Source of the DNA: Adineta ricciae | Lineage: Eukaryota | DNA: 16,291 nt | Direction of reading: 5' to 3' | NCBI GenBank assembly: GCA_905250025.1 | Contig: CAJNOJ010000205.1 | Span: forward strand, 1 to 16,291 | Shown here: positions 1,899 to 16,291 of the stretch, piece by piece | How positions within the stretch are numbered: the first letter of the stretch is position 1 | How the letters are laid out: every line of letters begins with the position of its first letter | Program-made: the position numbers and the translations under genes | The notes under the pieces: generated by a model | What the model saw: the letters and a program-made list of their open reading frames with translations, nothing else | The model's database searches: none | What the model was told of the DNA's origin: nothing

Positions 1899-2861
1899 AT
1901 GCTACAGAATGCGACAGAGAAAGTCATAGTTACTGGTAGAGATATCTATCTTCCTCCGAACTGGTCGGACATTACCTTCTCTTTATATATAGTTGGTCAA
2001 CTAGCATCGATTCCTTGCTATGTATTTGTATTTTATCATCTTTTGGCTACTAAAACTGCGCGCACAGCTCTCTACAATCACACTACTATAATCATGTTAT
2101 TTTTCAATTTGATCTACCTGACAATAGGTATATCATTAGTATTGATGTTCATGAAAGAGGGCGTATACATGCCATCCACTCCCGCACTTTGTCTTACTCA
2201 TCAAATGGTCGACCGTGGAGTTTGGTATGGAGCTGTATTTACAATGATTTGGCTGTGTATCGAACGACATATCCTAATCTTTTGCTCCAACTGGATCCGA
2301 ACTGCACGTGGGCAATGGGTATTTCATTATATCCCATTAGCTATTTTTTCTCTGTATGCGCCATGTTTTTATTTCTACATGATTTTCATTTATCCATGTG
2401 AGCATATATATGATTATCATGTTACTTTATGTGGTGGCCCTTGGTACTCGTGTTCGTTGTCAGCATCATTTCGTTTGTATTTAACTTTTGGCCATAACTT
2501 CATGCCATTCCCAATCATTTTCATTGTCAGCAGCAGCTTTCTACTTCGAGTCTTGATCCAAAAGCACCGTTTGAAACGTGGTAATATGTGGAAAAAGAAT
2601 CGAAAAATGATTTTACAATTTGTCTTTATTTCTACGACCTATATCAGCTTTGCTCTACCTTTCACGATGGTGAATATTACACGAAGAGTAAATGGTTATG
2701 ATGTCGATCCGAATGTGCGGACACTCTTTGATCGGATGGCCAATGTGCCAGCAATAGTTTTACCTTATGCCACCGCTATAACATTACCTCATGTGAAACA
2801 GAAACTTAAAATGTTAATCTGGTGGAAACGCACACGAACGGCTATCAATCCTTTATCGTGA
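1899..2861 (+). CDS. Rhodopsin-like 7TM receptor (orphan or chemoreceptor-type GPCR), 320 aa, apparently single exon.
   Basis: ATG-initiated ORF of 320 aa. The N-terminal ectodomain carries the sequons NAT and NWS. Seven hydrophobic segments are present. After TM3 there is an E/DRY-like motif (CIERHILIF). The third intracellular loop is basic (KHRLKRGNMWKKNRK) and the C-tail is short. The TM1 - basic loop - TM2 architecture is shared with the two partial receptor genes at the window edges. Confidence 0.6.
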   Translation: MLQNATEKVIVTGRDIYLPPNWSDITFSLYIVGQLASIPCYVFVFYHLLATKTARTALYNHTTIIMLFFNLIYLTIGISLVLMFMKEGVYMPSTPALCLTHQMVDRGVWYGAVFTMIWLCIERHILIFCSNWIRTARGQWVFHYIPLAIFSLYAPCFYFYMIFIYPCEHIYDYHVTLCGGPWYSCSLSASFRLYLTFGHNFMPFPIIFIVSSSFLLRVLIQKHRLKRGNMWKKNRKMILQFVFISTTYISFALPFTMVNITRRVNGYDVDPNVRTLFDRMANVPAIVLPYATAITLPHVKQKLKMLIWWKRTRTAINPLS

Positions 2862-3190: not shown

Positions 3191-4726
3191 ATGATGATTT
3201 TTATTCTACTTGGCGTTGTTGCCATCCTAATTTTTCTTGTCAAAATATTCGATACGACTGACATTCCGAAGATCCACGGACTTCCTGAAGCTCCTAACTG
3301 GCCAGTATTTGGCAGTTTATTCCAGCTGGGTGAGAATCATTCGAAATCACTATCAAAATTAGCGAAAAAACTGGGTCCAGTATTTCAAATTCGTATGGGA
3401 AATCGACGCATTGTAGTGGCGAACTCATATGATTCGATCAAATATTTCTGGGTCAAAAATCAATCCGCACTGATCAGCCGACCGGCATTGCATACATTTC
3501 ATAATGTTGTCAGCAGTGAAGTTTTATCGATTGGAACTTCACCGTGGGATGAGTCATGTAAACAGCGTCGTAAGGCAGCAGCGACTGCATTGAATAAACC
3601 AGCTGTTCAGACATACATGCCCATCATCGATCATGAATCGTACACCGCAATCAACGAAATATTGCACGAGTGTCAAAATGGCAAAGCTGATATTAATATT
3701 ATTCCTCATCTTCAGCGATTTGCATTAAACACATCGTTGACCCTTAACTATGGCACACGAATAGCTTCGTCGGATGATGCACTTTTGAAAGAGATCGTTA
3801 CAGTCGAAGGAGCTGTGGCACAGTTGCGATCAGCATCGAATAATTGGCAAGATTATGTTCCCCTCCTACGAATATTTCCTGCACGATCAAACGAAGCAGC
3901 GACAATTCGTCAACGTCGAGATCGTTACCTCGTTCAGCTACTGAATGGTCTAAAAAAAGACATTGCTAATGGAGTCGACAGACCATGTATAACAGGAAAT
4001 ATCCTCAAAGATCCATCTGCTAAATTAAATGAGACAGAAATTCGAAGCATTTGTTTGACAATGATCAGTGCTGCTCTTGAAACAGTTCCAGCAAACATTA
4101 TTCTCGGTATTGGTTACCTTTCATCGCCACACGGTCAAGAAATTCAGGAACGTGCCTATCGAGAAATTCTTGATGTCTATCCGGATGGTGATGCATGGGA
4201 TAGATGTCTTGATGAAGAACAAGTTCCTTATGTCACCGCTCTCTACAAAGAAATTCTTCGTTATTATACCGTTCACCATATGAGTCTTCCTCGACGTAGT
4301 GTTCAAGATATTGAATACGAAGGTTCACGAATTCCGGCTGGTACGTCATTCTATATGAATGCATTTGCCGGTGACTACGATGAGAATCATTTCGAAGATC
4401 CGTATCAATTCAATCCCGATCGTTATCTAGGTGATGTGGATGGTACACCTCATTACGCATATGGTGCTGGAACACGAATGTGTATTGGTGCTCATTTAGC
4501 GAACCGAGAACTATACACATTTCTCATTCGACTCATCATTGGATTTCGCATTCTCGGACCATTGAATAAAGAAGATGCCGCAATCTTAGATGGAATGGAA
4601 ATCAATGCACGACCTACCGGTCTCGTTGTGCAACCAAAAATGTTCAAATGTCGTTTCGAACCGAGAAATATAGAAGATCTCAAACGATGGATAGACGATA
4701 GCAAACAACGGGCAGAGCATCATTAG
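3191..4726 (+). CDS. Cytochrome P450 monooxygenase, 511 aa, intronless, fungal-type sequence signature.
   Basis: Single ORF starting MMIFILLGVVAILIFLV, a hydrophobic ER signal-anchor. The I-helix motif is AALETVP (AGxDTT-like). The K-helix ExxR is EILR. A PERF-like FNPDRY is present. The heme loop FGAGTRMCIGAHLANRELY matches FxxGxRxCxG, and its HLANRELY continuation is characteristic of fungal CYP clans. A possible TATA (TATATAG) lies at 3129..3135, about 55 nt upstream. Confidence 0.9.
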   Translation: MMIFILLGVVAILIFLVKIFDTTDIPKIHGLPEAPNWPVFGSLFQLGENHSKSLSKLAKKLGPVFQIRMGNRRIVVANSYDSIKYFWVKNQSALISRPALHTFHNVVSSEVLSIGTSPWDESCKQRRKAAATALNKPAVQTYMPIIDHESYTAINEILHECQNGKADINIIPHLQRFALNTSLTLNYGTRIASSDDALLKEIVTVEGAVAQLRSASNNWQDYVPLLRIFPARSNEAATIRQRRDRYLVQLLNGLKKDIANGVDRPCITGNILKDPSAKLNETEIRSICLTMISAALETVPANIILGIGYLSSPHGQEIQERAYREILDVYPDGDAWDRCLDEEQVPYVTALYKEILRYYTVHHMSLPRRSVQDIEYEGSRIPAGTSFYMNAFAGDYDENHFEDPYQFNPDRYLGDVDGTPHYAYGAGTRMCIGAHLANRELYTFLIRLIIGFRILGPLNKEDAAILDGMEINARPTGLVVQPKMFKCRFEPRNIEDLKRWIDDSKQRAEHH

Positions 4727-4925
4727 AATATGAAACTTTCTTTTTTAATTAAAATAAAACGAAATGTACTTTGTTTTTCTATTCGGACAAGTCACACAAG
4801 CCGAACATTCGTATGTCTTCTTTTTTTAATTATTTTTTACATATCATCTGAAGACCTATTCACAAGTTATGGTGAAACAATAGACTGCAAAAATAAACTG
4901 TATTCGCAAAAAGATTCATTCTGCA

Positions 4926-5590
4926 ATGAATGCGTTTGTCGTTGGATTGATTCTCGGCTTGCTAGTCGCAGGAAATGTACTAGCAGTTTTTATCGTCCTG
5001 TGGCGAATATCAGGTTTGGCATTACGATGGTGCCAGTATAAATGTAATTACTTTTTTTTCTAGTCACAAGCTCTACAAGTACGAGTTTAATCAGTACAAC
5101 TGTCACAAGTACTAAGAATCGACTACATAGAAACACGCCTAGTTTTTTCATTCTTTTTCTAGATAAAACTTCAACAACAGCAGCAACTACTATGACTAGA
5201 CCTCCGTCATCGGCCTGCGTATATAATAGCAGTATAACTTTCTACAATAATCAATTTCTTTATTCTTCAACATCGCAAACTTATGCAGCTGGGATGTTAA
5301 ATAATCAATTTGGTGTTTTCAAAGCTTATAGCTATGGAAATGTAACTGCTCAAGCTATATGGACAGCAAATCAAACTTCCACATCCGTTCCATGTTTTCT
5401 TGCTTTACAAACTGACCGTAATTTAGTTGTTTACGCAACGAGTAATCAAACAGTACTATGGGCGGCTAACATTTATAATAATGGCACTGGAAAACCATTC
5501 TGTTTTGAAATATCCGATTCTGGAAACCTAATCTGGATTGACAACAGTAGCTCGATTGTCTGGCAAACAAATACAGCACAAGCGGGATAA
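4926..5590 (+). CDS. Type-II membrane-anchored bulb-type (GNA-like, B_lectin) mannose-binding lectin. Two exons, join(4926..5013, 5064..5590), about 204 aa.
   Basis: Exon 1 encodes MNAFVVGLILGLLVAGNVLAVFIVLWRIS, a 25-residue hydrophobic anchor, and ends in phase 1 at cag|GTTTGG. The 50-nt intron at 5014..5063 ends in a polypyrimidine acceptor, cttttttttctag. Exon 2 restores the frame and gives V-TSSTSTSLISTTVTSTKNRLHRNTPSFFILFLDKTSTTAATT, a Ser/Thr-rich stalk. It then joins the listed 5192..5590 ORF, which contains the canonical bulb-lectin mannose-binding motif QxDxNxVxY as LQTDRNLVVY. Two further degenerate beta-prism subdomain repeats follow (…NNQFGVFKAY…, …ISDSGNLIWID…). Confidence 0.65.
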
Positions 5591-6751
5591 TTCTTTTTCG
5601 CTTTTGACTGACCAGAAAAAAGATCTATTTGCAATGAAGTTTTTCTGTTTTCAACGTTTTATTCGCCGTAATTGACCACATTGTCGACAGATAGAATAAT
5701 AACCAAATCGTTGAGATAGTTCCCATATCCATTCCAAATGACAATATATATGGTGGAACTGTTTGAAAATAAAATACTTCACTGCATTACCATAGAGTCG
5801 ATAGATACAACGCACGGTGGTGCAAAGAGAATGCAGTTAATGTCCACCGAACGATAACTCGTCGTAGGACTGGCACGTGCCATACCATCATTGATTAAAA
5901 CATTTGCACTACCAACGAATAGATGTTCTAACGATTCTGGTTTGCAGGCTAGAAATGCTGCGCCGATAAAATTGTATACACTAACTATTAGTAACCAGTA
6001 GGAAAGATAGGGAAGAGCCATAGAACAAAATGATCTGCTTACGAGTATCTTCGTTTGTAGAACTTTGTTCTAAAGCAAGAGAAACGAAATGTAGTGTGTT
6101 TTATATTATTCATGTATTGTTATCACATCCTTATCAGCTGAATGCAATAGTTTACTCGGATGCCCCATCTTACTACTTTGTAGCGAGTTTTCATAAAATA
6201 AGAAGTTGTTAAAACAGCTATTATAGAGCAAGCCTCATTTACATCATTATGTCATATAGAAAATCGAACGCTTTCATCACCTTGAATAGTTTTAAATATG
6301 ATTTCCAAGTTTCGAAGAGTACCCTCAACGATGCATGAATACGTTCGTTGTTCCATGTCTCAAGTAATACAATTTATGATTGGTTCTTTATCTTGCGGAT
6401 AGAAATCTATTATTAGTTTAGGTAAACACACCGCTGATGGTGAACAGCACGAATTAACAGTGCACAATTATATGTCACATTCTTGCATTAGCAACGCTAA
6501 TGTGATGGAAACCATAATTTCGACTAAAACGAAGAAGAAAGAATAGGTCTGATGATTTTCTTTTTTTTATAGATCGTCTATCATCTTTTCAGAAATCGTG
6601 TTCCTTTTTATTCGGTTATCTGCATCTTAACTTAAATGAAAATCATGGTGATCGCTTGAAGCTGTTTTATTAACATCTATAGAAAAACAAATGTTTCGAC
6701 AATCTGACTTGCTCTTTTTCAGATTTTAGAAATGCATCGTTGAAGGAGTAT

Positions 6752-7969
6752 CTATTGAAATAATTCTTCGAGTCTAACCGTTTGTGTCGGTTCATAGGGC
6801 GCATACCACATTCCAAATTCTGATGCTACTAAATGAATATGTAGTATGATTTTACCATTGAGTTCAAGTTCTACTTCAATTGTATGTTTCGTATGTCCTT
6901 TGCATGCCGATTGCAGTAATGATCGAATATGTTCCACGCTCCAATACGTGTTACTCTTTTTCAAACGAAGCTGTGCTTCCATTTGCTGTCGCGTACTTTC
7001 GTAACGATGCAATGAACTAAAAATGACATTTGATTCACAATTGCGATGACATTGTGGTGAAAACAAATATGTTACCAGGACTACAGATAGGCCCTTTCAG
7101 TTCACTGGTAGCTTTGTCCGTAGGCCAACATTTTGGATGATTGTTAAGCGTTTGTATCAGATGTAAACTTTTCAAATGCAGCTTTCATATCTTGAGGGTG
7201 ATTGAGTGAGCATGAAGTGTTTGTAGCACATGAGTTGCCATATAAGGAAAAGAGGTCAAACGTTTGACTTGTGCTCCGATTTGCGAAGGTCCAGCATTTT
7301 CCGTTGAATAGATCTCGGTTTCATTGACGCTAGATAGCACACCTATCATTCCGGGCCACGATAAGCTAACGTAACGGTATTGTTTCGATGCGCCCGAACT
7401 GTTGATAGCAAATAGTAGAGTAGTCGAGACAGTCACATGATGAATATCACACTCACCATCCATATTGCGACCAGCATATGATTCGTTGATCCGCTGTTAA
7501 AGTATTCCAAACGACAAACTGACTACAGTTTATGGATCATCTGTACGCGCATCTGATCTTATCGTTCGGCGTTCAATCATACTAAATGGATGCTTCAGTT
7601 CATGAAGATAGAGATCATTCCAATATCTTCTGCTACTAAGTAAAAATAAAACCAATCGAGAATATGAGGAGCTAGTAAATATCCATGTGTATAACTTCGA
7701 TCGTCGGTTGTAATGGCATTTAGTTGTAGGACTGGAATACGATTGATTTGCTAGAATCGTGTCGCGTCTGTTTCTGTTGGATAACCGATAGCAAAGAATG
7801 AATGAGGTTTGCGTAGTATAATATCAGCATTTAAATTCGAGATTGTATGTCGAGTCCATTTCTCGCCTGTTTCATTTGTACTCCATCCAAATGCTTGCTT
7901 CTCTGGATGCACCAACGATCCATGTGTATCTGAAAAATATTCACTCTCGCCCGCCCCACCCTCAAGATG
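6752..7969 (-). pseudogene. Decayed gene remnant. Long ORF segments lie in three different minus-strand frames with an in-frame TAG between two of them. Function unknown.
   Basis: Minus-strand segments run 5'->3'. Segment 1, about 7969..7753, reads HLEGGAGESEYFSDTHGSLVHPEKQAFGWSTNETGEKWTRHTISNLNADIILRKPHSFFAIGYPTETDATRF, then a TAG. Segment 2 continues in the same frame from about 7750..7594: QINRIPVLQLNAITTDDRSYTHGYLLAPHILDWFYFYLVAEDIGMISIFMN. Segment 3 is the track ORF 7185..7463 in a second frame (…CDIHHVTVSTTLLFAINSSGASKQYRYVSLSWPGMIGVLSSVNETEIY…). Segment 4 is the track ORF 6752..7066 in a third frame (…HTIEVELELNGKIILHIHLVASEFGMWYAPYEPTQTVRLEELFQ*). I could not find consistent GT..AG introns that join these frames. 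Confidence 0.3.
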
Positions 7970-8081
7970 CTAGCATGTAAAATATTCAGAAAGAAAGATA
8001 AACCATTCTTGTTTATCACTAAGATAAGAAGCACAGTAACCATATTTATATTCAGGATGATTATTTGTCTTCATTTTAGGT

Positions 8082-9897
8082 ATGCTATTTCTACCTGTCT
8101 TTCTGTTGTTAATATGGATACGAGCTGTTGTCTTGCTAGATTTGATGAGCGATACATGGACGGCAACCGATGGCCTTGGTCGTTCTCTCCCCAAAACAGT
8201 ACCGTCACCACGAGCAGATCGATTCGTTGGGATGTTCTATTTTCTCTGGCTTGGCTTTGAATCACCTGATGGACCATTTGACATCAGTAAAATTCTCACA
8301 GCTCATCCAAATGCAATGTTAGAACCGAATAATTCCGCATGGGGGCCGATGACTCATTATCATCACTGGGGTGAACCTTATTTTGGCTACTATCGTTCAA
8401 ACGATCAATGGGTTATTCGGCGACATGCGAGAATGCTGGTCAATGCTGGTGTTGATGTTATCTTCTTCGATGTCACAAATACTGCTGTTTATCTCGAGTC
8501 TTTTCGAGCTATATGCCAAGCCTTTTCCGATGTGCGTGCTGTAGGAGGGTCAACACCGCAAGTTGCATTTCTCACACCTTTTGGATCACCGCTCGGAACG
8601 GTGCAAGTTCTTTTCGACAGTATTTATAAGATAAACTATCATCCGGAACTGTGGTTTCGATGGGAAGGCAAACCATTCATCCTTGCCAATCCACAATCCT
8701 TTCAAACACGTCCGGATATTTTAAATTTTTTTACTTTTCGGACGCCTCAGCCTGATTATTTCACTGGGCCAACTGGTGCCAATCAATGGGGTTGGTTAGA
8801 AATATATCCTCAACACGTCTACAAAACTAGTGCAAACATATCGGAACAAATGACTGTTGGTGTCGCACAGAACGCCGTTGGCAATCGACTGGGATCGATG
8901 AGTGAAGTTGGTTCTCATGGGCGTAGTTTTCATAACAATACTATTCCATCAGGTAATACATTAACACCGTACGGATTAAATATGCAAGAGCAATGGGAAC
9001 GCGCCATAGAAATTGATCCACAATTTGTATTTGTTACTGGTTGGAATGAATGGATTGCTATGCGTCTATCGGAATTCGCTAGTATAAAACTTCCAGTTAT
9101 GTTTGTCGATGAATTCGATTGGGAACATAGTCGTGATATTGAGCCTTGTGCTGGAGGAGTTAACGGAGGGTATCCTGAAGGTAGGCAGCGTGATTTCTAT
9201 TCAGTTATTAATATGTAATGGTTTCCTAGGAAATCATTATCAGGATGCGTACTATTATCAATTAGTGAGCAATGTTCGTCGTTATAAAGGCGCTCGATCT
9301 GTTCCAATACCTACTGAACCGAAAACCATCAATATTGGACAAGATTTTACGCAATGGGAAACGGTTGGACCATCATTCATTGATTATATCAATGACGTAG
9401 AACATCGCAATGAGACTGGATACAACACTAGTATGCACTACCGGGATGATACAGGTCGAAATGACATTATCTTAGTCAAAGTAGCGAGAGACATGAACAA
9501 TGTTTACTTTTATGCTCGAACTAATAACACGCTGACGAATGCGAATAATAGTTCTAACTGGATGTTACTCTTTATTGATATTGATCAAAATTTTACAACA
9601 GGATGGGAAGGATTTGATATTGTAGTTAATCGTCACATTAATGGTTCGCTTACATCTATAGAACGAAGTCAATCTGGCTGGATTTGGCAACTCGTTTCAC
9701 AAATTGCTTTTGCCACCGTTAACCATGAATTACACTTCGCTATTCCCAGAGCGTTATTAGGTTTCAACAGCACAGCTCCTGTCAAGGTTAATTTCAAGTG
9801 GGTAGATAATATGATACGTGATGGCGATATTCTCAGTCTTTTTCAAAATGGAGACACTGCTCCGGATGGTCGGTTCAGTTATGTATTTAATGGTTAG
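8082..9897 (+). CDS. Secreted TIM-barrel glycoside-hydrolase-like protein of bacterial type. Two exons, join(8082..9180, 9230..9897), 588 aa.
   Basis: Two track ORFs (8082..9218 and 9103..9897) sit in different frames. They are joined exactly by a 49-nt GT..AG intron at 9181..9229 (GTAGGCAG…gtttcctAG). The donor falls after codon position 1, so G|GA reconstitutes Gly and gives …GGYPEG-NHYQDAYYYQ…. The N-terminus MLFLPVFLLLIWIRAVVLL is signal-peptide-like. The catalytic-domain motifs are those of bacterial (beta/alpha)8 glycosidases: HYHHWGEPYFGYYRSNDQWVIRRHARMLVNAGVDVIFFDVTN and a strand ending FVFVTGWNEWIAM (an 'NEW' motif, as in GH99/GH71/GH114-type and GHL families). The C-terminal ~250 aa form a beta-sandwich-like domain (NVYFYARTNNTLTN…WMLLFIDIDQNFTTGWEGFDIVVNR). 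A possible TATA (TATTTATA) lies at 8043..8050. Confidence 0.8.
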
Positions 9898-9938
9898 GGA
9901 TTGGGAAAAAAATTGTACTTCTCAAACATATTCAAACT

Positions 9939-11461
9939 CTAAACTGCTTGAGCATGCGCTTCTTGTTTGGTTTTCTTTTGAAAAGTGCTCAATCCATCGT
10001 ATTCATTGTCACCCCAATAGAAAATAAGACTCTTTTCTGTTGCACCTTGTCCATATGGATAATACTTCTGATAGTCTAATGTATTGCTTAGTCCTCCCTT
10101 TTGGTCCACCAGAAGAATCACATTTTGATCATTTGGTTTGATAGTATTTCGCAGAACTGTATTACCAGATGCATACGAAATCGAAATTTCACCACCACCT
10201 GTACGATTGTTGTCATTTTGTTCAAGACGATTGTCAGTAAATGAACAATTCACCACTCGACCACGTCTAAAAGCGTTCATTTTCGTTATTCATTAACAGA
10301 AAAACTCTTAAGAAATCATTTACTTAGAATCATATCCACCGAAGGCCAATCCATATTTATCATTGTGATGAAGATAATTATTTCGCACAGTCATCTTCGT
10401 ACCTATTTGACCTTTATTCTCTGCACCAATTTCAATTCCCATGTCTGAATGATGTACTTCATTGTTTTCTATGGTGACATTCGATGCTCCATCAACATAG
10501 ATACCAGCTGCACTATGATCGTAAACTGAATGAATGTTCCAAACTGTGTTATTCGCACATCGAGCACTTCGAACCCCCAATTTACCGGCCCAGCTTTCAC
10601 CAGCTAATATTATGTTATATAGTTAACTTTTAATTAGAGAAATCATCAAAAGTCATACCGATGAAATCGATTCCAATGTTATTCATGTTATATACTTTGT
10701 TGTTCGTTACTTGAATCTCCTCAACGTTTCCATTGAAAGTCAAAGCTTCACTCCATGCTGGCTCACAATCATGGAGCGTGCAATTATCAACGATCACTTG
10801 TCGTCGACTCGTTTTCTGGTTTGTGTTATAAACGGTAATCGCCATTGCACCGCCGTTTTCGCCACCACCACGGATATCGTGAATATGGAGATTTCGAAGT
10901 TCTAGAAACATAAACTATATTTTTGGTAACGACAGCTTCAAAAACCTACCAACATTGGTTCCAGCGCCAGTAATTCTCACTCCACTGCATTCTGTCGATT
11001 TCAAACCTGTCAATTCTAAGTTGACAAAGCGGAGATAACTTTTATCTTGAACAAAGATTATATTTAATGTTCCATCAGCGGATGCTTTTTTTGTATCTTT
11101 GCCAGAAATAATCGGTGCATTGTTTGATGTTAAACTAGTGAATGTAATCGGCCCGTCTTGAGCATTGCCTTGGACGTTAATTGTGACAGCTTCGTAATAC
11201 GTTCCGGCACCAATGTAAACGGTAGAACCAGGTGTTGCCGAATTTGCTGCTTTTTGAACTGTTAACCAAGCAGTGGTTTCAGTAGTTCCTGCATTGGTAT
11301 CCTTGCCAGATTTGGTCACATAGTAAGATTTACCCGCTACTATTTAAAATAAACACATAGAACATTTTACGCTCAATCATATGATAGGCGTTCGTGTACA
11401 TACTTATTTGCATCCATAAAAGGGCACTCATCAAACATATAAGTTGAAATTGGAACGACAT
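9939..11461 (-). CDS. Secreted right-handed parallel beta-helix (PbH1-repeat, pectin-lyase-fold) protein, bacterial type, paralog 1. Five exons, complement(join(9939..10266, 10324..10603, 10659..10901, 10950..11339, 11404..11461)), 432 aa.
   Basis: Exon 1 is 58 nt and encodes MSFQFQLICLMSALLWMQI, a signal peptide. It ends in phase 1 at A|GTATGT. Intron 1 is 64 nt and ends tttattttaaatAG. Exon 2 begins …AGKSYYVTKSGKDTNAGTTETTAWLTVQKAANSATPGSTVYIGAGTYYE, the N-terminal cap signature of bacterial beta-helix proteins, and ends AATGTTG|GTAGGT. Intron 2 is 48 nt. Exon 3 encodes ELRNLHIHDIRGGG…NNIGIDFIG and ends ATCG|GTATGA. Intron 3 is 55 nt. Exon 4 carries PbH1 repeats (NVTIENNEVHHSDMGIEIGAEN…TVRNNYLHHNDKYGLAFGGYDSK) and ends TCTAA|GTAAAT. 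Intron 4 is 57 nt. Exon 5 encodes …TGGGEISISYASGNTVLRNTIKPN…SLIFYWGDNEYDGLSTFQKKTKQEAHAQAV*. Exon lengths sum to 1299 nt, which is 433 codons. All four junctions restore the frames of the track ORFs 10915..11319, 10630..10911, 10320..10580 and 9939..10280. Confidence 0.8.
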
Positions 11462-11508
11462 GATGAAAATCGTGAATACGAATGAGGTGGTAGATGTTTA
11501 TGTCGTTT

Positions 11509-11517
11509 CTTTATATA
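11509..11517 (-). promoter_or_regulatory. TATA box (TATATAAAG on the minus strand) about 48 nt upstream of the paralog-1 start codon.
   Basis: On the minus strand the sequence reads TCTTATATAAAGAAACGACATAAACATCTACCACCTCATTCGTATTCACGATTTTCATC-ATG. A near-identical arrangement, GGTATATATAAAGAAG…ATC-ATG, is found upstream of paralog 3. The corresponding position in paralog 2 is degenerate (GGTATGTTCACGC). Confidence 0.5.
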
Positions 11518-11900
11518 AGACATAGGTTACGATTAAAAGCGCAGGCAAATATTTACACCTCTTCTACTGTTTAGTCATAAACGGTTTCTTTTGAAATCGT
11601 GTCATGCATAGCCTCCAGCGCTGTGAATGCATTCTGTTCTGTATCAGAAACAAATCAACAATCTCCCTTGTGAAAAGATGCCATTAGAGGCATTAGTAAC
11701 CAATGTTTTTCTTCGTGACCATGCATTTGCAAACGTAAAATAATCATGACTACGTGTCGTCACCTTTATCGATTGAAACGATAATTACATTTTTCAATTT
11801 TTTCTTTCTCTCGCCTTCTCACAAGCTGACAATGTCGTCACTATCATGTGACTGGCAAACACGACATATCTTTATTCAAAACTTATGTAAACAAATGTTT

Positions 11901-13646
11901 CTACTCCAAGGCACGTTTACCAACACTGATCTGTGCATGCATCTCTTGTTTTGTATTCTCTTGGAATGCAGTGAGACCCTGGTATTCTCTATGTCCCCAA
12001 TAGAAGATTAGACTTTCTTTTGTTGCACCTCGTCCGTTCGGATAGTACTTTTGATAATCGAAGTGATTATTCAAACCACCTCTTTGGCTTGCTACTAGGA
12101 TTACGTTCTGTCTGTTTGGCTTTATTGTATTGCGCTGCACTATATTACCAGAAGCAAATGAAATGGAAATTTCTCCGCCACCAGTCAGATGTGCATCATT
12201 CTGTTCAAGATGATTGCCAGTAAATGAACTATTTGTCACTGTACCACATCTGTAAAATATCAGTATACATTTATTGATACTACCAAAATATGTGCGAATA
12301 TAACTTACTGAGAATCATATCCACCAAAAGCTAAGCCATATTTGTCGTTGTGATGAAGATAATTATTTCGAACAATCACCCTTGTAGCCATTCGACCTTT
12401 ATTCTCTGCACCAATTTCAATTCCCATATCTGCATGATGCACTACGTTGTGTTCTATGGTGACATTCGATGCTCCATCAACATAGATACCAGCTGCACTA
12501 TGATCGTAAACTGAATGAATGTTCCAAACTGTGTTATTCGCACATCGAGCACTTCGAACCCCCAATTTACCGGCCCAGCTTTCACCAGCTAGTAATATGT
12601 TATATAGTTAACTTTTAATTAGAGAAATCATCAAAAGTCATACCGATGAAATCGATTCCAATGTTGTTCATGTTATATACTTTGTTGTTCGTTACTTGAA
12701 TCTCCTCAACGTTTCCATTGAAAGTCAAAGCTTCGCTCCAAGCTGGCTCACAATCATGAAGCGTGCAATTATCAACGATCACTTGTCGTCGACTCGCGTT
12801 CTGGTTTGTGTTATAAACGGTAATCGCCATTGCACCGCCGTTTTCGCCACCACCACGGATATCGTGAACGTGGAGATTTCGAAGTTCTAGGAATATAAAA
12901 GGATAATTTTAATATCGATAAGCGTGAAACCTACCAATATTCGTTCCAGGGCCGATTATTCTCACTCCACTACACTCTACCGCTCTCAAATTTGTTAGTT
13001 CTAAATTGACGAACCGTAAATAGCTTTTGTCTTCAATATAGATGACATTGAATGTTTCATCGGCAGATGGATTTTGTGAAATTCTACCAGAAATAATTGG
13101 CACGTTGTTTGATATCAAACTAGTGAACGTAATTGGTCCATCGTGTGCATTTCCTTCTACGTTAATCGTCACTGTTTCATAATAAATGCCAGGACCAATA
13201 TAGACAGTAGAACCAGGTGTCGCTGAATTCGCTGCTCTTTGTATCGTTAACCAAGCAGTTACTCTACTTGTTCCCGCATTGGTATCTTGACCAGATTTCA
13301 TTACGTAATACGATCTGCGCGCCACTATGTAATAAACGCATACCCTTCTGTCGAGAATTATTGTTGTAGACTCACGGATAAAAAAAATGAATATATCAGA
13401 TCTGATAGAAAACTTTATGTTGAACATCTCAACGGTACACTTTGTCAGATATTCAAAATACATGCACTCATGTTTCAAGATTTATTCACTTACTTCCATC
13501 TTGCGTCCCGGGTGAGATTTTGTTCACTAGAAATTGAACTAGCACAGAGTGCTGCATGCTCAATTAGACAAATATTATGCATACGTACTTATTTGCGTCC
13601 ATAAAAGACCGGTGGCTAAATACATAGAATGCAGTCGATCAAACAT
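11901..13646 (-). CDS. Beta-helix protein paralog 2, the middle copy. Exons 2-5 are intact but the 5' end is divergent. Proposed model: complement(join(11901..12249, 12309..12588, 12644..12886, 12935..13324, 13589..13646)), about 439 aa if the homologous exon 1 is used.
   Basis: Exons 2-5 are the same length as in paralog 1 apart from exon 5 (390, 243 and 280 nt, with exon 5 at 349 nt). Junctions are homologous: AATATTG|GTAGGT, ATCG|GTATGA and TCTCA|GTAAGT. Introns 2, 3 and 4 are 48, 55 and 59 nt. Exon 2 encodes …ARRSYYVMKSGQDTNAGTSRVTAWLTIQRAANSATPGSTVYIGPGIYYE…. Exon 5 ends …KQEMHAQISVGKRALE*. The sequence homologous to exon 1 (13589..13646) encodes MFDRLHSMYLATGLLWTQI, which is no longer hydrophobic. 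It is separated from exon 2 by a 264-nt interval at 13325..13588 rather than a ~60-nt intron. No TATA box lies upstream. Whether this copy is expressed or secreted is uncertain. Confidence 0.6.
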
Positions 13647-13976
13647 GATGAAAATGATCAATGTGAATGAGGTATCAGATGCTCGTATCGTGCGTGAACA
13701 TACCAGAAGAAGTTTGCATTACTGATAAATATTTTCTTTGCATAGTGCGTCACGCATCGCTCTAGTATATGGAAAAATTGGCATTAAAAGTGTTAGTAAC
13801 CAGTGTTTTTCTCTTCATGACTATGCGTTTTGCAAATATAAATAAAACATGCCTATATGTCACCGCCTCCTCAGATCGAAGTGATGATTGCATATTTCAA
13901 TTTTCTCTTTCTCATCTTCCGACAACAGTGTCACTTTCATGTGATTTGCGATCGCAACATATATTTCATTCAAACT

Positions 13977-15530
13977 TTATAGAAAAAAGCGTTTACGTCC
14001 AAAGGCACGTTTGCTAACGCCGAGTTCTGCATGCATTTCTTGTTTGGTATTCTGTTGAAAGGAAGTCAAACCATCATACTCCGTGTTTCCCCAAAAGAAG
14101 ATAAGACTTTCTTTGGTAGCACCTTGACCATTCGGATAGTACTTTTGATAGTCAAATTGATTATTCAAACCACCTTCTTGGCTGGCAAGTAGAATTACAT
14201 TTTGTGAGTTTGGTCTTATCGTGTTACCATAGACTACATTGCCCGAAGCAAATGAGATTGAAATTTCTCCACCACCGGTAAGACGTACATCGTTCTGTTC
14301 AAGACGATTATTTATAAATAAACTATTGGTGACTTGACCACGTCTATAATGTGTTAACGTGCTCGTACTTTCATGTCACGAGATTATGCATAAATATAAC
14401 TTACTGAGAATCATATCCGCCAAAAGCTAAGCCATATTTGTCATTGTGATGAAGATAATTATTCCGAACAGTCATTTTTGAAGCCACTCGACCTTTATTC
14501 TCTGCGCCAACTTCGATCCCCATGTCCGAATGGTGTACTTCGTTAGATTCGATAGTGACATTCGATGCTCCATCAACATAGATACCCGCTGAACTACTAT
14601 CATAGACGGAGTGAATGTTCCACACGAGGTTATAAGCACAGAGACCATTTCGTACTCCAAGAGCACCGAGGAAGCTTTCTCCACCTTTAGAAAAAGAAAA
14701 AAAATATAACATTTCTGATATTTGACTGAGTTCTACATACCAATGAAATCGATTCCAATGTTGTTCATGTTATACACTTTGTTGTTCGTTACTTGAAAAT
14801 CTTCAATATTTCCATTGAAAGTCAAAGCTTCACTCCACGCTGGCTCGCAATCATGGAGTATACAACTATCAACGATCACTTGTCGTCGACTTGCCGTTTG
14901 ATCTTTATTGTAAACCGTGATTGGCATTGCTCCACCGCTCTGTCCACCGCCACGAATATCATGAATGTGCAAACCTCGAAGTTCTTGAAGCAAAAGCTAT
15001 ATTTTTGGTAACGACAGCATCAAAACCTACCAACATTGGTTCCAGCACCAGTAATTCTCACACCACTACATTCTACTGCTTTCAAATCTGTCAATTCTAA
15101 ATTGACAAAGCGCAAATAGCTTTTCTCTTGAATAAAAATTATGTTCATGGTGCCATCAGCAGATTCTGTTTTAGCCTGTTTGCCAGATATCACTGCTGGC
15201 TTATCAAAGATCAAGCTAGCGAATGTAATTAGTCCATCTCGGGCATTTCCTTGTACATTGACTGTTACTGTTTCATAATACGTTCCAGGACCAATGTAAA
15301 CCGTGGATCCGGGTGTTGCTGAATTCGCAGCTTTTTGAACTGTTAACCAAGCAGATGTCTCACTCGTTCCTGCATTGGTATCCTTGCCAGATTTCGTTAC
15401 ATAGTATGTTCTACCAGCTACTATATAATAGCCATACAGAAGACCTTATATTTCATAGTAGAAAATCTTTGCACATACCTGTTTGAGTCCAAAGTAAAAG
15501 AAAAGTGAAACAAGCAAGTCCTGTTTGCAT
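13977..15530 (-). CDS. Secreted beta-helix protein paralog 3. Five exons, complement(join(13977..14343, 14405..14684, 14741..14983, 15031..15420, 15479..15530)), 443 aa.
   Basis: Exon 1 is 52 nt and encodes MQTGLACFTFLLLWTQT, a signal peptide, ending G|GTATGT. Intron 1 is 58 nt and ends tattatatAG. Exon 2 encodes VAGRTYYVTKSGKDTNAGTSETSAWLTVQKAANSATPGSTVYIGPGTYYE… and ends AATGTTG|GTAGGT. Intron 2 is 47 nt and ends gcttcaAG. Exon 3 encodes ELRGLHIHDIRGGGQSGG…NNIGIDFIG and ends ATTG|GTATGT. Intron 3 is 56 nt and ends ttctaaAG. Exon 4 encodes GESFLGALGVRNG…GGYDSQ and ends CA|GTAAGT. Intron 4 is 61 nt and ends cattatAG. Exon 5 encodes …GGGEISISFASGNVVYGNTIRPN…SLIFFWGNTEYDGLTSFQQNTKQEMHAELGVSKRAFGRKRFFL*. 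Exon lengths sum to 1332 nt, which is 444 codons. Confidence 0.8.
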
Positions 15531-15567
15531 GATCGTTGTAAAATCTGTTTGACGAAATGTAATTCTT

Positions 15568-15578
15568 CTTTATATATA
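15568..15578 (-). promoter_or_regulatory. TATA box (TATATATAAAG on the minus strand) about 40 nt upstream of the paralog-3 start codon.
   Basis: On the minus strand the sequence reads GGTATATATAAAGAAGAATTACATTTCGTCAAACAGATTTTACAACGATC-ATG. The spacing and the ATC-ATG start context match paralog 1. Confidence 0.5.
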
Positions 15579-15855
15579 CCATACACGTATTTACCAAGGA
15601 AAGTGCAAGGGTCTATTTATATGTCACTTGTTAGGCGTCACTCTCAAGCAGTTTTCTATTTTCTATAACATGCGCACTTCTCAATATCAATTAGTTTTTC
15701 TTGCGTATGAAGTGAACTGCATATGTAACATGTTTCTGCATGGCTTCCTTCATTAATTGAGTTAGTTTATTTCAAGTGTTCGAAAAGGAAAAGGGTATAC
15801 ATGTAAATAGAGTAGGAGGGCGGAATGATACGACAACATTTGTTTTTGTGTGCTT

Positions 15856-16291
15856 TTATTTAGTGATGCCTGCACCTGTATGAGTCGCTGTTAACGTTGG
15901 TCGAACTCGATGTTGATTTTTGCTACATCCAAACATCATAATACATTCTTGCCGAAATTCTTTAAATGTGAGAAAATAAAGTGGAAATGACAAGATATGA
16001 TAAGTATACAAAACTGGATCTAGAATTTTAACCGATATTGGTGGAGGTATGTCAGAAAATGCAGAGGCAATGGTTGCTGGTACTGTCATGATCAGAAAGA
16101 GACATGTTGTAATAACCAGTGTAATCGAAATCGCTCGGTGATTGATTCGGGAGTTTTGAATCAATTGTGTTTGGTGACGACGATATAAATGATGAATCAC
16201 TCCACTATTAAGTGTCACCATAAGAATAAACGGTGCAAAATTGTACACACCTAAATTGACATAATCCCATAAGGGATAAATAATGTATAGT
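15856..16291 (-). CDS. Rhodopsin-like 7TM receptor, 3' portion (about TM3/4 to the C-terminus). The gene starts beyond the right edge.
   Basis: The minus-strand frame is open from the right edge to a stop at 15856..15858. The track 'M' at 16248 is a GTG codon inside the ORF. The translation reads …LYIIYPLWDYVNLGVYNFAPFILMVTLNSGVIHHLYRRHQTQLIQNSRINHRAISITLVITTCLFLIMTVPATIASAFSDIPPPISVKILDPVLYTYHILSFPLYFLTFKEFRQECIMMFGCSK… It contains a TM7 NPxxY-like motif (DPVLY) and a basic intracellular loop, as in the 1899..2861 receptor. Confidence 0.55.
   Translation of the reverse strand, partial: LYIIYPLWDYVNLGVYNFAPFILMVTLNSGVIHHLYRRHQTQLIQNSRINHRAISITLVITTCLFLIMTVPATIASAFSDIPPPISVKILDPVLYTYHILSFPLYFLTFKEFRQECIMMFGCSKNQHRVRPTLTATHTGAGITK

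What the first reader, a model, noticed from the sequence alone, without database searches (positions are those of the whole stretch)
13325..13700. The middle paralog is losing its 5' end: promoter, signal peptide and first intron
Copies 1 and 3 have a TATA box about 40-48 nt upstream of a start codon that opens a hydrophobic signal peptide (MSFQFQLICLMSALLWMQI and MQTGLACFTFLLLWTQT). Their first introns are 58 and 64 nt. In copy 2 the homologous upstream block is retained (…ACCTCATTCACATTGATCATTTTCATC-ATG…). However, the TATA is mutated to GGTATGTTCACGC. The exon-1 sequence has been partly replaced and now encodes MFDRLHSMYLATGLLWTQI, with no hydrophobic core. It is also separated from exon 2 by 264 nt of unrelated sequence. 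Exons 2-5 remain fully open. Copy 2 may therefore be a young pseudogene. It could be transcribed from an alternative promoter to yield a non-secreted isoform. It may also serve mainly as a gene-conversion donor for its neighbours.
Basis: seen in the sequence. Interest (0 to 1): 0.55.

Follow-up and report, generated by a model that had tools for sequence, protein, structure and literature searches.

The report
Diverged but intact rotifer gene copy
The middle of three tandem beta-helix enzyme genes in the rotifer Adineta ricciae does have an odd 5' end (no TATA box, weak signal peptide, long first intron), but that state is old and the gene is under strong purifying selection, so it is a working diverged paralog and not a dying one.

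Summary
The window is Adineta ricciae (bdelloid rotifer). It holds three tandem five-exon genes on the minus strand. They encode right-handed beta-helix proteins whose nearest non-rotifer relatives are bacterial. It lacks the TATA-like box that eight relatives carry at -46 to -65. Its leader's hydrophobic peak (1.32) is lower than in 99% of 102 family leaders. Its first intron is 264 nt.

The decay interpretation fails.
- The same 5' structure is present in the second A. ricciae haplotype (dS about 0.2). The 3' 109 nt of the long intron also occur in a third, environmental lineage.
- Copy 2 has the lowest dN/dS of the three copies (0.066). Outside a gene-conversion tract there are 31 synonymous and 9 nonsynonymous differences (p = 2e-13).
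- Exon 1 shows 3 synonymous and 0 nonsynonymous changes, and all splice sites are intact.
- It keeps the family's conserved residues and models as a complete beta-helix (pLDDT 93).
- First introns of 150-185 nt occur in normal relatives.
- Copies 1 and 2 share a sharply bounded conversion tract of about 450 nt. The tract is copy-1-type, so copy 2 looks like the recipient.

Expression and secretion remain untested. The finding is ordinary and of low interest.

The parts
11901..13646 (-). Copy 2 gene, ATG to stop. Five-exon model of 439 aa: exons 13646..13589, 13324..12935, 12886..12644, 12588..12309 and 12249..11901.
   Evidence: One search gives the model, which is in frame with GT..AG at all introns. 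One search finds Pfam Beta_helix. One search gives an AF2 model with pLDDT 93.3.
13589..13646 (-). Copy 2 exon 1, encoding the leader MFDRLHSMYLATGLLWTQI plus one base of the next codon.
   Evidence: There are 3 synonymous and 0 nonsynonymous differences between haplotypes. The hydrophobic peak is 1.32.
13325..13588 (-). Copy 2 intron 1, 264 nt (GTACGT...TTACATAG).
   Evidence: 89.4% identity between haplotypes, close to the other non-coding DNA. One search shows the splice sites are identical in both haplotypes. One search shows the 3' 109 nt are present in the environmental lineage L008.
13494..13538 (-). 45-nt micro-exon (IQFLVNKISPGTQDG) used in the database model CAF1286669.1. Its reality is unproven.
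   Evidence: models P0001 and P0123. One search shows the ORF and flanking splice sites are kept in both haplotypes, but there are 4 differences in 45 nt (2 synonymous, 2 nonsynonymous), which is an intron-like rate.
13692..13704 (-). GGTATGTTCACGC, the place where the family's TATA box would be. A 27-nt gap relative to copy 1 lies next to it.
   Evidence: alignment; no TATA-like motif at -46..-65 in either haplotype.
13725..13731 (-). TATTTAT at -85. This is the nearest TATA-like element upstream of copy 2, it is conserved in both haplotypes, and it is a candidate substitute core-promoter element (inference).
13647..13672 (-). Retained 5'UTR block CCTCATTCACATTGATCATTTTCATC, homologous to copy 1 and similar to the 5'UTRs of A. 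steineri P0009 and A. ricciae P0011.
12452..12900 (-). Gene-conversion tract shared with copy 1 (copy 1 coordinates 10467..10915). It covers the end of intron 2, exon 3, intron 3 and the first half of exon 4.
   Evidence: 28 haplotype-specific variants are shared by copies 1 and 2, and there are 0 paralog-fixed differences inside the tract. One search shows the tract is copy-1/A. vaga-type.
9939..11461 (-). Copy 1 gene (432 aa). TATATAAAG at 11517..11509. Intron 1 is 64 nt.
13977..15530 (-). Copy 3 gene (443 aa). TATATATAAAG at 15578..15568. Intron 1 is 58 nt.

Best explanation
Copy 2 is an old paralog, maintained by selection, in a tandem trio of bacterial-type (probably horizontally acquired) right-handed beta-helix genes. 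These are probably carbohydrate-active enzymes. The organism is the bdelloid rotifer Adineta ricciae.

The 5' end of copy 2 was remodelled long ago. The segment carrying the TATA box was lost, the leader peptide drifted to low hydrophobicity, and intron 1 grew by about 200 nt. That remodelled state has been stable since.

Shown: the coding sequence, including exon 1, has been under purifying selection since the two haplotypes diverged, and exons 2-5 also since a third lineage diverged.

Inferred: the gene is still transcribed, either from a TATA-less promoter or from one using the TATTTAT at -85. Exon 1 is spliced to exon 2 across the 264-nt intron. The product is an intact beta-helix enzyme whose weak leader gives either inefficient secretion or a changed location.

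A recurrent gene conversion of about 450 nt from copy 1 homogenises exon 3 and part of exon 4. It does not account for the conservation elsewhere in the gene.
For: Identity of the window. Copy 1 and copy 3 proteins equal A. ricciae CAF1286649.1 and CAF1286692.1.

Second haplotype. L001 is collinear with the window at 93.9% identity over 8.3 kb. It has the same copy-2 exon 1, 264-nt intron and TATA-less upstream region. Its dS of 0.14-0.21 fits the published KS of A. ricciae homologs, 0.14 +/- 0.036 (PMC5916493).

Selection. dN/dS between haplotypes is 0.101 for copy 1, 0.066 for copy 2 and 0.126 for copy 3. In copy 2 outside the conversion tract there are 31 synonymous and 9 nonsynonymous differences, omega 0.076, binomial p = 2e-13. 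Exon 1 has 3 synonymous and 0 nonsynonymous differences, p about 0.011.

Third lineage. Environmental contigs L008 and L009 carry exons 2-5 intact, with no indels and all splice sites, at omega 0.11-0.125. The 3' 109 nt of intron 1 are homologous.

Integrity of the protein. Of 89 columns conserved at 90% or more in 110 homologues, copy 2 deviates alone at only one, I to V. AF2 gives pLDDT 93.3 and pTM 0.90 for a full beta-helix. The relative-rate test of copy 2 against copy 3 is not significant (29 vs 19 unique changes, p = 0.15).

Intron length. Intron 1 is 150-185 nt in A. steineri genes that have normal leaders. The mean A. ricciae intron is 104 bp, with a long-intron class (PMC5916493).

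Age. In exon 2, dS is about 0.8-1.2 against copies 1 and 3. In the tree, copy 2 groups with copy 3 at 95% bootstrap, and copy 1 with A. vaga at 100%.
Against: No expression data could be reached. No transcript-derived protein for any isoform is in the collection.

The public BRAKER/RNA-seq models disagree at the copy-2 5' end. P0001 has exon 1 plus a micro-exon. P0122 and P0125 start inside exon 2 and are fused to copy 1. This suggests weak RNA-seq support there (inference).

The leader is less hydrophobic than 99% of family leaders, and the family's conserved TATA is missing, so reduced or altered expression and targeting is plausible.

dN/dS averages over the whole time since divergence. It cannot exclude silencing in the very recent past.

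The exon-1 test rests on only three substitutions.
Confidence: 0.8

Rival explanations
1. Young pseudogene. Loss of the promoter and signal peptide has inactivated copy 2, and the open exons 2-5 simply have not had time to decay.
For: The TATA box is absent, the leader is weak, intron 1 is the longest in the family, and the database models are inconsistent at the 5' end.
Against: All three 5' features predate the haplotype split at dS about 0.2. The long intron also predates a third lineage. Since then omega has been 0.07-0.12, with no indel, stop or splice-site loss. Exon 1 itself shows only synonymous changes. Conserved family residues are kept.
Confidence: 0.05
2. Dead gene kept looking intact by gene conversion from its neighbours, or existing mainly as a conversion donor.
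For: There is a sharply bounded tract (12900..12452) in which copies 1 and 2 are 95-100% identical within each haplotype and share 28 haplotype-specific variants.
Against: The tract covers only about 450 nt of the roughly 1.75-kb gene. Outside it copy 2 is 70-86% identical to copies 1 and 3 and still has omega of 0.076. The tract is 91% identical in protein to the A. vaga orthologue of copy 1, against 81% to copy 3, so copy 2 is more likely the recipient.
Confidence: 0.03
3. The database model is right. The 264 nt are two introns (50 and 169 nt) around a 45-nt micro-exon, which inserts IQFLVNKISPGTQDG. This lengthens the hydrophobic stretch (LLWTQIIQFLV) and so partly restores a signal peptide.
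For: P0001 and P0123 (BRAKER with RNA-seq hints; PMC7943196) both use it. The ORF, the acceptor TGCTAG and the donor GTAAGT are identical in both haplotypes. The 11-residue hydrophobic peak rises from 1.22 to 1.71.
Against: Divergence in the micro-exon (4 of 45 nt; 2 synonymous, 2 nonsynonymous) is the same as in the flanking intron. The same database models also splice 57 nt out of exon 5, which removes the invariant N364 and well-modelled strands, so they are not reliable here. Other models of the same sequence omit exon 1 altogether. The 9-residue peak is still only 1.49, at the 1st percentile of family leaders.
Confidence: 0.15
4. Copy 2 is transcribed from a start inside intron 1, or by read-through from copy 3 (330 nt upstream), and is translated from Met28 (MKSGQ...) as a leaderless cytosolic protein. 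Exon 1 would then be a relic.
For: There is no TATA at the normal place. Two database models start at MKSGQ. The intergenic distance to copy 3 is short. Spliced-leader trans-splicing exists in bdelloids (from memory: Pouchkina-Stantcheva and Tunnacliffe 2005; not tested here).
Against: The exon 1 peptide is identical in both haplotypes despite three nucleotide changes. The donor, acceptor and phase are conserved. The reading frame that is open in intron 1 of the window is broken in the other haplotype.
Confidence: 0.08

Closest known systems
Foreign (bacterial-type) gene families in bdelloid rotifers, organised as homologous pairs within a degenerate tetraploid genome (Nowell et al. 2018, PMC5916493; Nowell et al. 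2021, PMC7943196)
   Same: The top non-rotifer relatives are bacterial or metagenomic beta-helix proteins at about 45% identity. Homologues occur in Adineta, Rotaria and Didymodactylos. The genes have acquired short spliceosomal introns at conserved positions, TATA boxes and eukaryotic-style leaders. The two haplotype copies differ at dS of 0.14-0.21, like published A. ricciae homologs.
   Different: Nothing essential. This locus is one more example. The specific enzyme activity is unknown.
Right-handed parallel beta-helix carbohydrate-active enzymes (Pfam PF13229 Beta_helix, PF22842 Pel9A-like; structural neighbours GH136 lacto-N-biosidase, GH120 XylC, PL6 lyases)
   Same: Pfam Beta_helix at E = 2e-16. 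PF22842 is precomputed for the homologues. The AF2 model is a continuous beta-helix. The best Foldseek PDB hits are 6kqs, 5gqc and 7v6m (GH136), 3vst (GH120) and PL6 entries. There is a weak sequence hit to 3vst.
   Different: Sequence identity to any solved structure is 10-16%. No catalytic residues could be assigned, so membership of a particular CAZy family is not established.
Duplicate-gene divergence by change of the N-terminal targeting peptide (protein subcellular relocalisation of paralogs; general concept, from my own knowledge)
   Same: One of three paralogs has a leader with much lower hydrophobicity, while the mature domain stays under purifying selection.
   Different: A change of location is not demonstrated. 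The leader may still be a weak signal peptide.
Interlocus (ectopic) gene conversion and concerted evolution in tandem arrays
   Same: There is a sharply bounded tract with within-haplotype identity of 95-100%, above the between-haplotype identity, and with shared haplotype-specific variants.
   Different: It is confined to about 450 nt. It involves copies 1 and 2 only. The 5' end under discussion lies outside it.
Unprocessed (duplicated) pseudogene
   Same: It is a tandem duplicate that lacks the family's core-promoter motif.
   Different: There is no disabling mutation, omega is about 0.07, and the splice sites are intact in three lineages.

Membership tests
Unprocessed pseudogene | Disabling mutations (frameshift, premature stop, lost splice sites) | tested here: not met
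   The CDS is intact in W, L and the environmental lineage. All GT..AG sites are kept.
Unprocessed pseudogene | Relaxed constraint (dN/dS approaching 1) | tested here: not met
   Omega is 0.066 for the whole gene, 0.076 outside the conversion tract (p = 2e-13), and 0.11-0.125 against the third lineage.
Unprocessed pseudogene | Loss of transcription | not testable with these tools
   No RNA-seq or CAGE access. No transcript-derived proteins are in the collection.
Classical eukaryotic secretory signal peptide (copy 2 leader) | Hydrophobic h-region of about 7-15 residues | tested here: inconclusive
   The best 9-residue KD mean is 1.32 (SMYLATGLL). This is below 99% of 102 family leaders and falls within the upper 11.5% of random mature-domain windows. 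SignalP was not available.
Classical eukaryotic secretory signal peptide (copy 2 leader) | Small neutral residues at -3/-1 of a cleavage site after the h-region | tested here: inconclusive
   I-M-A|RR is compatible by inspection with the -3/-1 rule (sequence). No predictor was run.
TATA-containing core promoter as in the other family members | TATA-like box 46-65 nt upstream of the ATG | tested here: not met
   Present in 8 of 8 relatives and absent in copy 2 of both haplotypes. The nearest is TATTTAT at -85.
Right-handed beta-helix (PF13229 / Pel9A-like) protein | Significant Pfam match and conserved family residues | tested here: met
   E = 2.3e-16. 41 invariant columns are all present in copy 2, which is the reference row of alignment A1. 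There is only one private deviation among 89 conserved columns.
Right-handed beta-helix (PF13229 / Pel9A-like) protein | Beta-helix fold | tested here: met
   AF2 pLDDT 93.3 and pTM 0.90. Foldseek hits to beta-helix GH136, GH120 and PL6 structures have probability 1.0.
Interlocus gene conversion tract | Paralogs more alike within a haplotype than orthologous copies are between haplotypes, with sharp borders | tested here: met
   Between 12900 and 12452 there are 28 concerted sites and 0 paralog-fixed sites. Exons 2 and 5 outside the tract have 0 concerted and 169 paralog-fixed sites, and the 3' part of exon 4 has 1 and 15.
Horizontally acquired bdelloid gene | Closest non-rotifer relatives are non-metazoan | tested here: met
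   In the top 120 hits, everything outside the rotifers is bacterial or metagenomic (for example Caldithrix and Verrucomicrobia), at 37-45% identity. No formal HGT index was computed.

The most novel reading that the evidence does not exclude
Copy 2 is a relocalised paralog. The hydrophobic core of its leader decayed, and this converted a secreted, horizontally acquired beta-helix glycan-active enzyme into an intracellular or differently routed one. Purifying selection on both the odd leader and the mature domain has since kept that new state. This would be an example of a foreign gene family diversifying by a change of targeting rather than of catalysis.
Probability: 0.3. Interest if true: 0.35.

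Novelty: new member of a known kind. Interest (0 to 1): 0.2.

Why it matters
The practical value is mainly as a caution. A missing TATA box, a weak leader and a long first intron look like decay when only one sequence is read. Comparison with the second haplotype and a third lineage shows a stable gene under constraint.

There are also corrections to the public annotation. The database model of this gene (CAF1286669.1) probably carries a spurious 57-nt intron in exon 5 and an unproven micro-exon. The maxhap models fuse copies 2 and 1.

Biologically it adds one clean example of two things in an asexual bdelloid: recurrent, sharply bounded ectopic gene conversion between tandem foreign-origin genes, and a possible change of targeting in one paralog. 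Neither would surprise specialists.

Tried and rejected
1. Alternative first exon with a proper signal peptide. I enumerated every ATG-to-GT segment in phase 1 between the copy 3 stop and copy 2 exon 2. None exceeds a hydrophobic peak of 1.78. The best candidate (MFNIKFSIRSDIFIFFI, 13427..13376) has a stop, and GT changed to GC, in the other haplotype. Rejected.

2. Transposon origin of the extra 200 nt in intron 1. blastn with word size 7 against the window, L001 and L002 found nothing beyond chance. There is no similarity to the long first introns of the A. steineri genes. The origin is unresolved. The repeat finder failed on strand syntax and was not repeated.

3. Transcript evidence. Exact look-ups of five possible copy-2 isoforms were not in the collection. 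P0001, P0123 and P0124 are not on record as called genes.

4. More copy-2 exon-1 orthologues. Two degenerate back-translated patterns scanned against metagenome contigs gave 0 hits.

5. Spliced-leader trans-splicing and operon literature. The key paper is not held, and the searches gave nothing usable.

6. Accelerated evolution of copy 2. Tajima-type relative-rate tests were not significant.

7. Sequence search of PDB. It gave only a weak N-terminal hit to the GH120 xylosidase 3vst.
Full report
WHAT THE WINDOW IS. The region 9939..15530 holds three tandem genes on the minus strand. Each has five exons, with exon sizes of 390, 243 and 280 nt for exons 2-4. The copy 1 model (432 aa) is identical to Adineta ricciae CAF1286649.1. 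The copy 3 model (443 aa) is identical to CAF1286692.1. Copy 2 corresponds to CAF1286669.1 (P0001). All three lie on a 189,886-bp contig. The proteins match Pfam Beta_helix. Their homologues carry PF22842 (Pel9A-like), and outside the rotifers they are bacterial or metagenomic at about 37-45% identity. This is the usual signature of a foreign-origin bdelloid gene family. An AlphaFold model of copy 2 is a complete right-handed beta-helix (pLDDT 93.3, pTM 0.90). Its nearest solved folds are GH136 lacto-N-biosidases, GH120 XylC and PL6 lyases, so it is probably a carbohydrate-active enzyme of unknown specificity.

THE OBSERVATION.
- Intron 1 is 64 nt in copy 1, 58 nt in copy 3 and 264 nt in copy 2 (13588..13325), with phase 1 kept.
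- Copy 1 has TATATAAAG at 11517..11509 and copy 3 has TATATATAAAG at 15578..15568.
- A TATA-like box lies 46-65 nt upstream of the ATG in eight of eight other family genes or haplotype copies. These are copies 1 and 3 in both haplotypes, A. vaga, two A. steineri genes and a second A. ricciae locus. Copy 2 has none there.
- In the alignment, copy 2 has a 27-nt gap opposite the copy-1 TATA, next to GGTATGTTCACGC. The proximal 5'UTR block is retained.
- The copy-2 leader MFDRLHSMYLATGLLWTQI has a best 9-residue Kyte-Doolittle mean of 1.32. Copies 1 and 3 score 2.79 and 2.71. Only 1% of 102 family leaders score as low; their median is 2.76 and their 5th percentile is 1.97.
- The extra sequence of about 200 nt in intron 1 resembles nothing else available.

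WHY THIS IS NOT DECAY. A second A. ricciae contig (L001, CAJNOR010000694.1) is collinear with window 7968..16291 at 93.9% identity. Both versions of each protein occur in each of two assemblies of the same sample. The synonymous divergence of 0.14-0.21 matches the published KS of A. ricciae homologous pairs, 0.14 +/- 0.036, against 1.27 for ohnologs (PMC5916493). L001 is therefore the homologous haplotype. It has the same copy-2 exon 1, the same 264-nt intron with identical splice sites, and the same TATA-less upstream region. The remodelled 5' end thus predates the haplotype split.

Since that split, copy 2 has the lowest dN/dS of the three copies: 0.066, against 0.101 for copy 1 and 0.126 for copy 3. 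Copies 1 and 2 exchange sequence, so I repeated the test on the parts of copy 2 outside the conversion tract. There are 31 synonymous and 9 nonsynonymous differences, omega 0.076, with binomial p = 2e-13 against neutrality. Exon 1 carries three differences, all synonymous (S7, Y9, L10). The chance of that under neutrality is about 0.011. This is a small sample, but it points the same way.

A third lineage was found in environmental assemblies (L008 and L009, about 9% diverged). It contains the 3' 109 nt of intron 1 and the acceptor. It also contains exons 2-5 without any indel, all other splice sites, and omega of 0.11-0.125 against both haplotypes. Among 89 alignment columns conserved at 90% or more in 110 homologues, copy 2 departs on its own at a single column, I to V. 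Its rate is not significantly higher than that of copy 3.

Long first introns are not abnormal in this family or this genome. A. steineri genes with strongly hydrophobic leaders have first introns of 150-151 and 185 nt. A. ricciae introns average 104 bp, with a distinct long class.

AGE AND RELATIONSHIPS. In exon 2, dS is about 0.8-1.1 between copies 1 and 2 and about 1.1-1.2 between copies 2 and 3. A neighbour-joining tree of the non-converted regions groups copy 1 with the single A. vaga gene (100% bootstrap) and copy 2 with copy 3 (95%). Copy 2 is therefore an old duplicate, not a young one. Part of the 'homologous upstream block' (window 13974..13772 against 11880..11672, 71% identity) is best read as the 3' flanks of the sister genes, copy 3 and copy 2. 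This is an inference.

GENE CONVERSION. Between 12900 and 12452 in copy 2 (10915..10467 in copy 1), the two paralogs are 95-100% identical within each haplotype. That is higher than the identity of the same gene between haplotypes. Inside this tract, 28 variants are haplotype-specific and shared by copies 1 and 2, and no site is paralog-fixed. In exons 2 and 5 there are no such concerted sites and 169 paralog-fixed sites. The 3' part of exon 4 has 1 concerted and 15 paralog-fixed sites. This requires conversion after the haplotypes split, in at least one haplotype and probably in both. The tract is 91% identical in protein to A. vaga, the orthologue of copy 1. It is 81% identical to copy 3, the sister of copy 2. 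The direction was therefore probably from copy 1 into copy 2, which is the opposite of a 'donor' role. The 5' end lies outside the tract.

THE DATABASE MODELS. The A. ricciae annotation used BRAKER2 with RNA-seq hints (PMC7943196). Its copy-2 models (P0001 and P0123) split the 264 nt into introns of 50 and 169 nt around a 45-nt micro-exon (13538..13494, IQFLVNKISPGTQDG). The ORF and flanking splice sites of that micro-exon are conserved in both haplotypes. However, its divergence (4 of 45 nt; 2 synonymous, 2 nonsynonymous) equals that of the surrounding intron. The same models excise 57 nt of exon 5, which removes the invariant N364 and confidently modelled strands. Other models of the same DNA begin at MKSGQ in exon 2 and fuse copies 2 and 1 (P0122 and P0125). 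The predictions at this 5' end are unstable. I therefore treat the micro-exon as unproven, with a probability of about 0.15.

MOST LIKELY MECHANISM. Shown: the structure is intact and the coding sequence is under purifying selection, exon 1 included. Inferred: the gene is expressed, from a TATA-less promoter or one using the conserved TATTTAT at -85 (13731..13725). Exon 1 is spliced to exon 2. The product is a functional beta-helix enzyme with an atypical leader. Whether that leader still directs secretion, possibly inefficiently, or leaves the protein inside the cell is open. I give the relocalisation reading about 0.3.

VERDICT. This is an ordinary diverged tandem paralog in a known kind of bdelloid foreign-gene family. 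Interest is 0.2.

Noticed in passing
window 12452-12900 (copy 2) and 10467-10915 (copy 1); L001 equivalents: There is a sharply bounded ectopic gene-conversion tract of about 450 nt between tandem copies 1 and 2. Within it, 28 haplotype-specific variants are shared by both paralogs, so conversion recurred after the two haplotypes diverged. In haplotype L the copies differ at only 2 sites; in W they differ at 14.
   Followed up: yes
window 12126-12182 (exon 5 of copy 2) and 13494-13538: The public model CAF1286669.1 (and CAF1378217.1 on the other haplotype) removes 57 nt of exon 5 encoding GNIVQRNTIKPNRQNVILV, which includes the family-invariant N364. It also adds a 45-nt micro-exon in intron 1. 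Models CAF0983762.1 and CAF1357645.1 fuse copies 2 and 1. These are probably annotation errors.
   Followed up: partly
window 12297-12370 (end of exon 4 and start of intron 4 of copy 2) vs 14393-14466 (copy 3; approximate): Copies 2 and 3 are about 97% identical over a 60-column alignment window, including the first 12 nt of intron 4 (GTAAGTTATATT). Elsewhere they are 60-85% identical with dS of about 1.1. This may be a short second conversion tract between copies 2 and 3.
   Followed up: partly
window 15414-15424 (copy 3 intron 1 acceptor) and 11333-11343 (copy 1): There are tandem NAGNAG acceptors (ATAG|TAG). For copy 3 both products are annotated (443-aa P0003 and 442-aa P0128, which lacks V18). 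I believe BRAKER reports alternatives only when hints support them (from memory, not checked), so this may reflect RNA-seq hints for copy 3.
   Followed up: partly
window 11462-11490, 13647-13675; L006 ~7970-8000; L007 ~4146-4176: A 5'UTR motif (ATTCAYATTSA...TTTCATC directly before the ATG) is shared by copy 1, copy 2, A. steineri P0009 and A. ricciae P0011, although dS is about 1 or more between these genes. Copy 3, A. vaga and P0005 lack it. It may be a conserved regulatory or translational element.
   Followed up: no
window 1899-2861, 3191-4726, 5192-5590, 8082-9897: Neighbouring genes on the plus strand: an intronless 320-aa multi-pass membrane ORF with no Pfam hit; an intronless cytochrome P450 (E = 2e-60); a B_lectin-like ORF (E = 7.5e-6, below the Pfam cut-off); and a roughly 590-aa, two-exon gene with a faint GH99-like match that converges on the 3' end of copy 1. 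The cluster has the look of a bdelloid region rich in foreign-type genes.
   Followed up: partly
window 4700-7950 vs L001 17880-21554: Identity between haplotypes drops from about 94% (genes to the right) to 86-89%, with alignment breaks, in the region holding only short unannotated minus-strand ORFs (6752-7066, 7185-7463). L001 has a 591-aa gene model there. It is either a faster-evolving or a structurally rearranged segment.
   Followed up: no
L002 (A. vaga CP075497.1 436612-458150); L005 (A. steineri): A. vaga has a single annotated family member at its locus, with introns of 62, 59, 55 and 58 nt. It is the orthologue of copy 1, so the copy 2/3 lineage is either missing or elsewhere in A. 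vaga. One A. steineri haplotype (L005) carries a second copy 2.6 kb downstream that is absent from L003 and L004.
   Followed up: no
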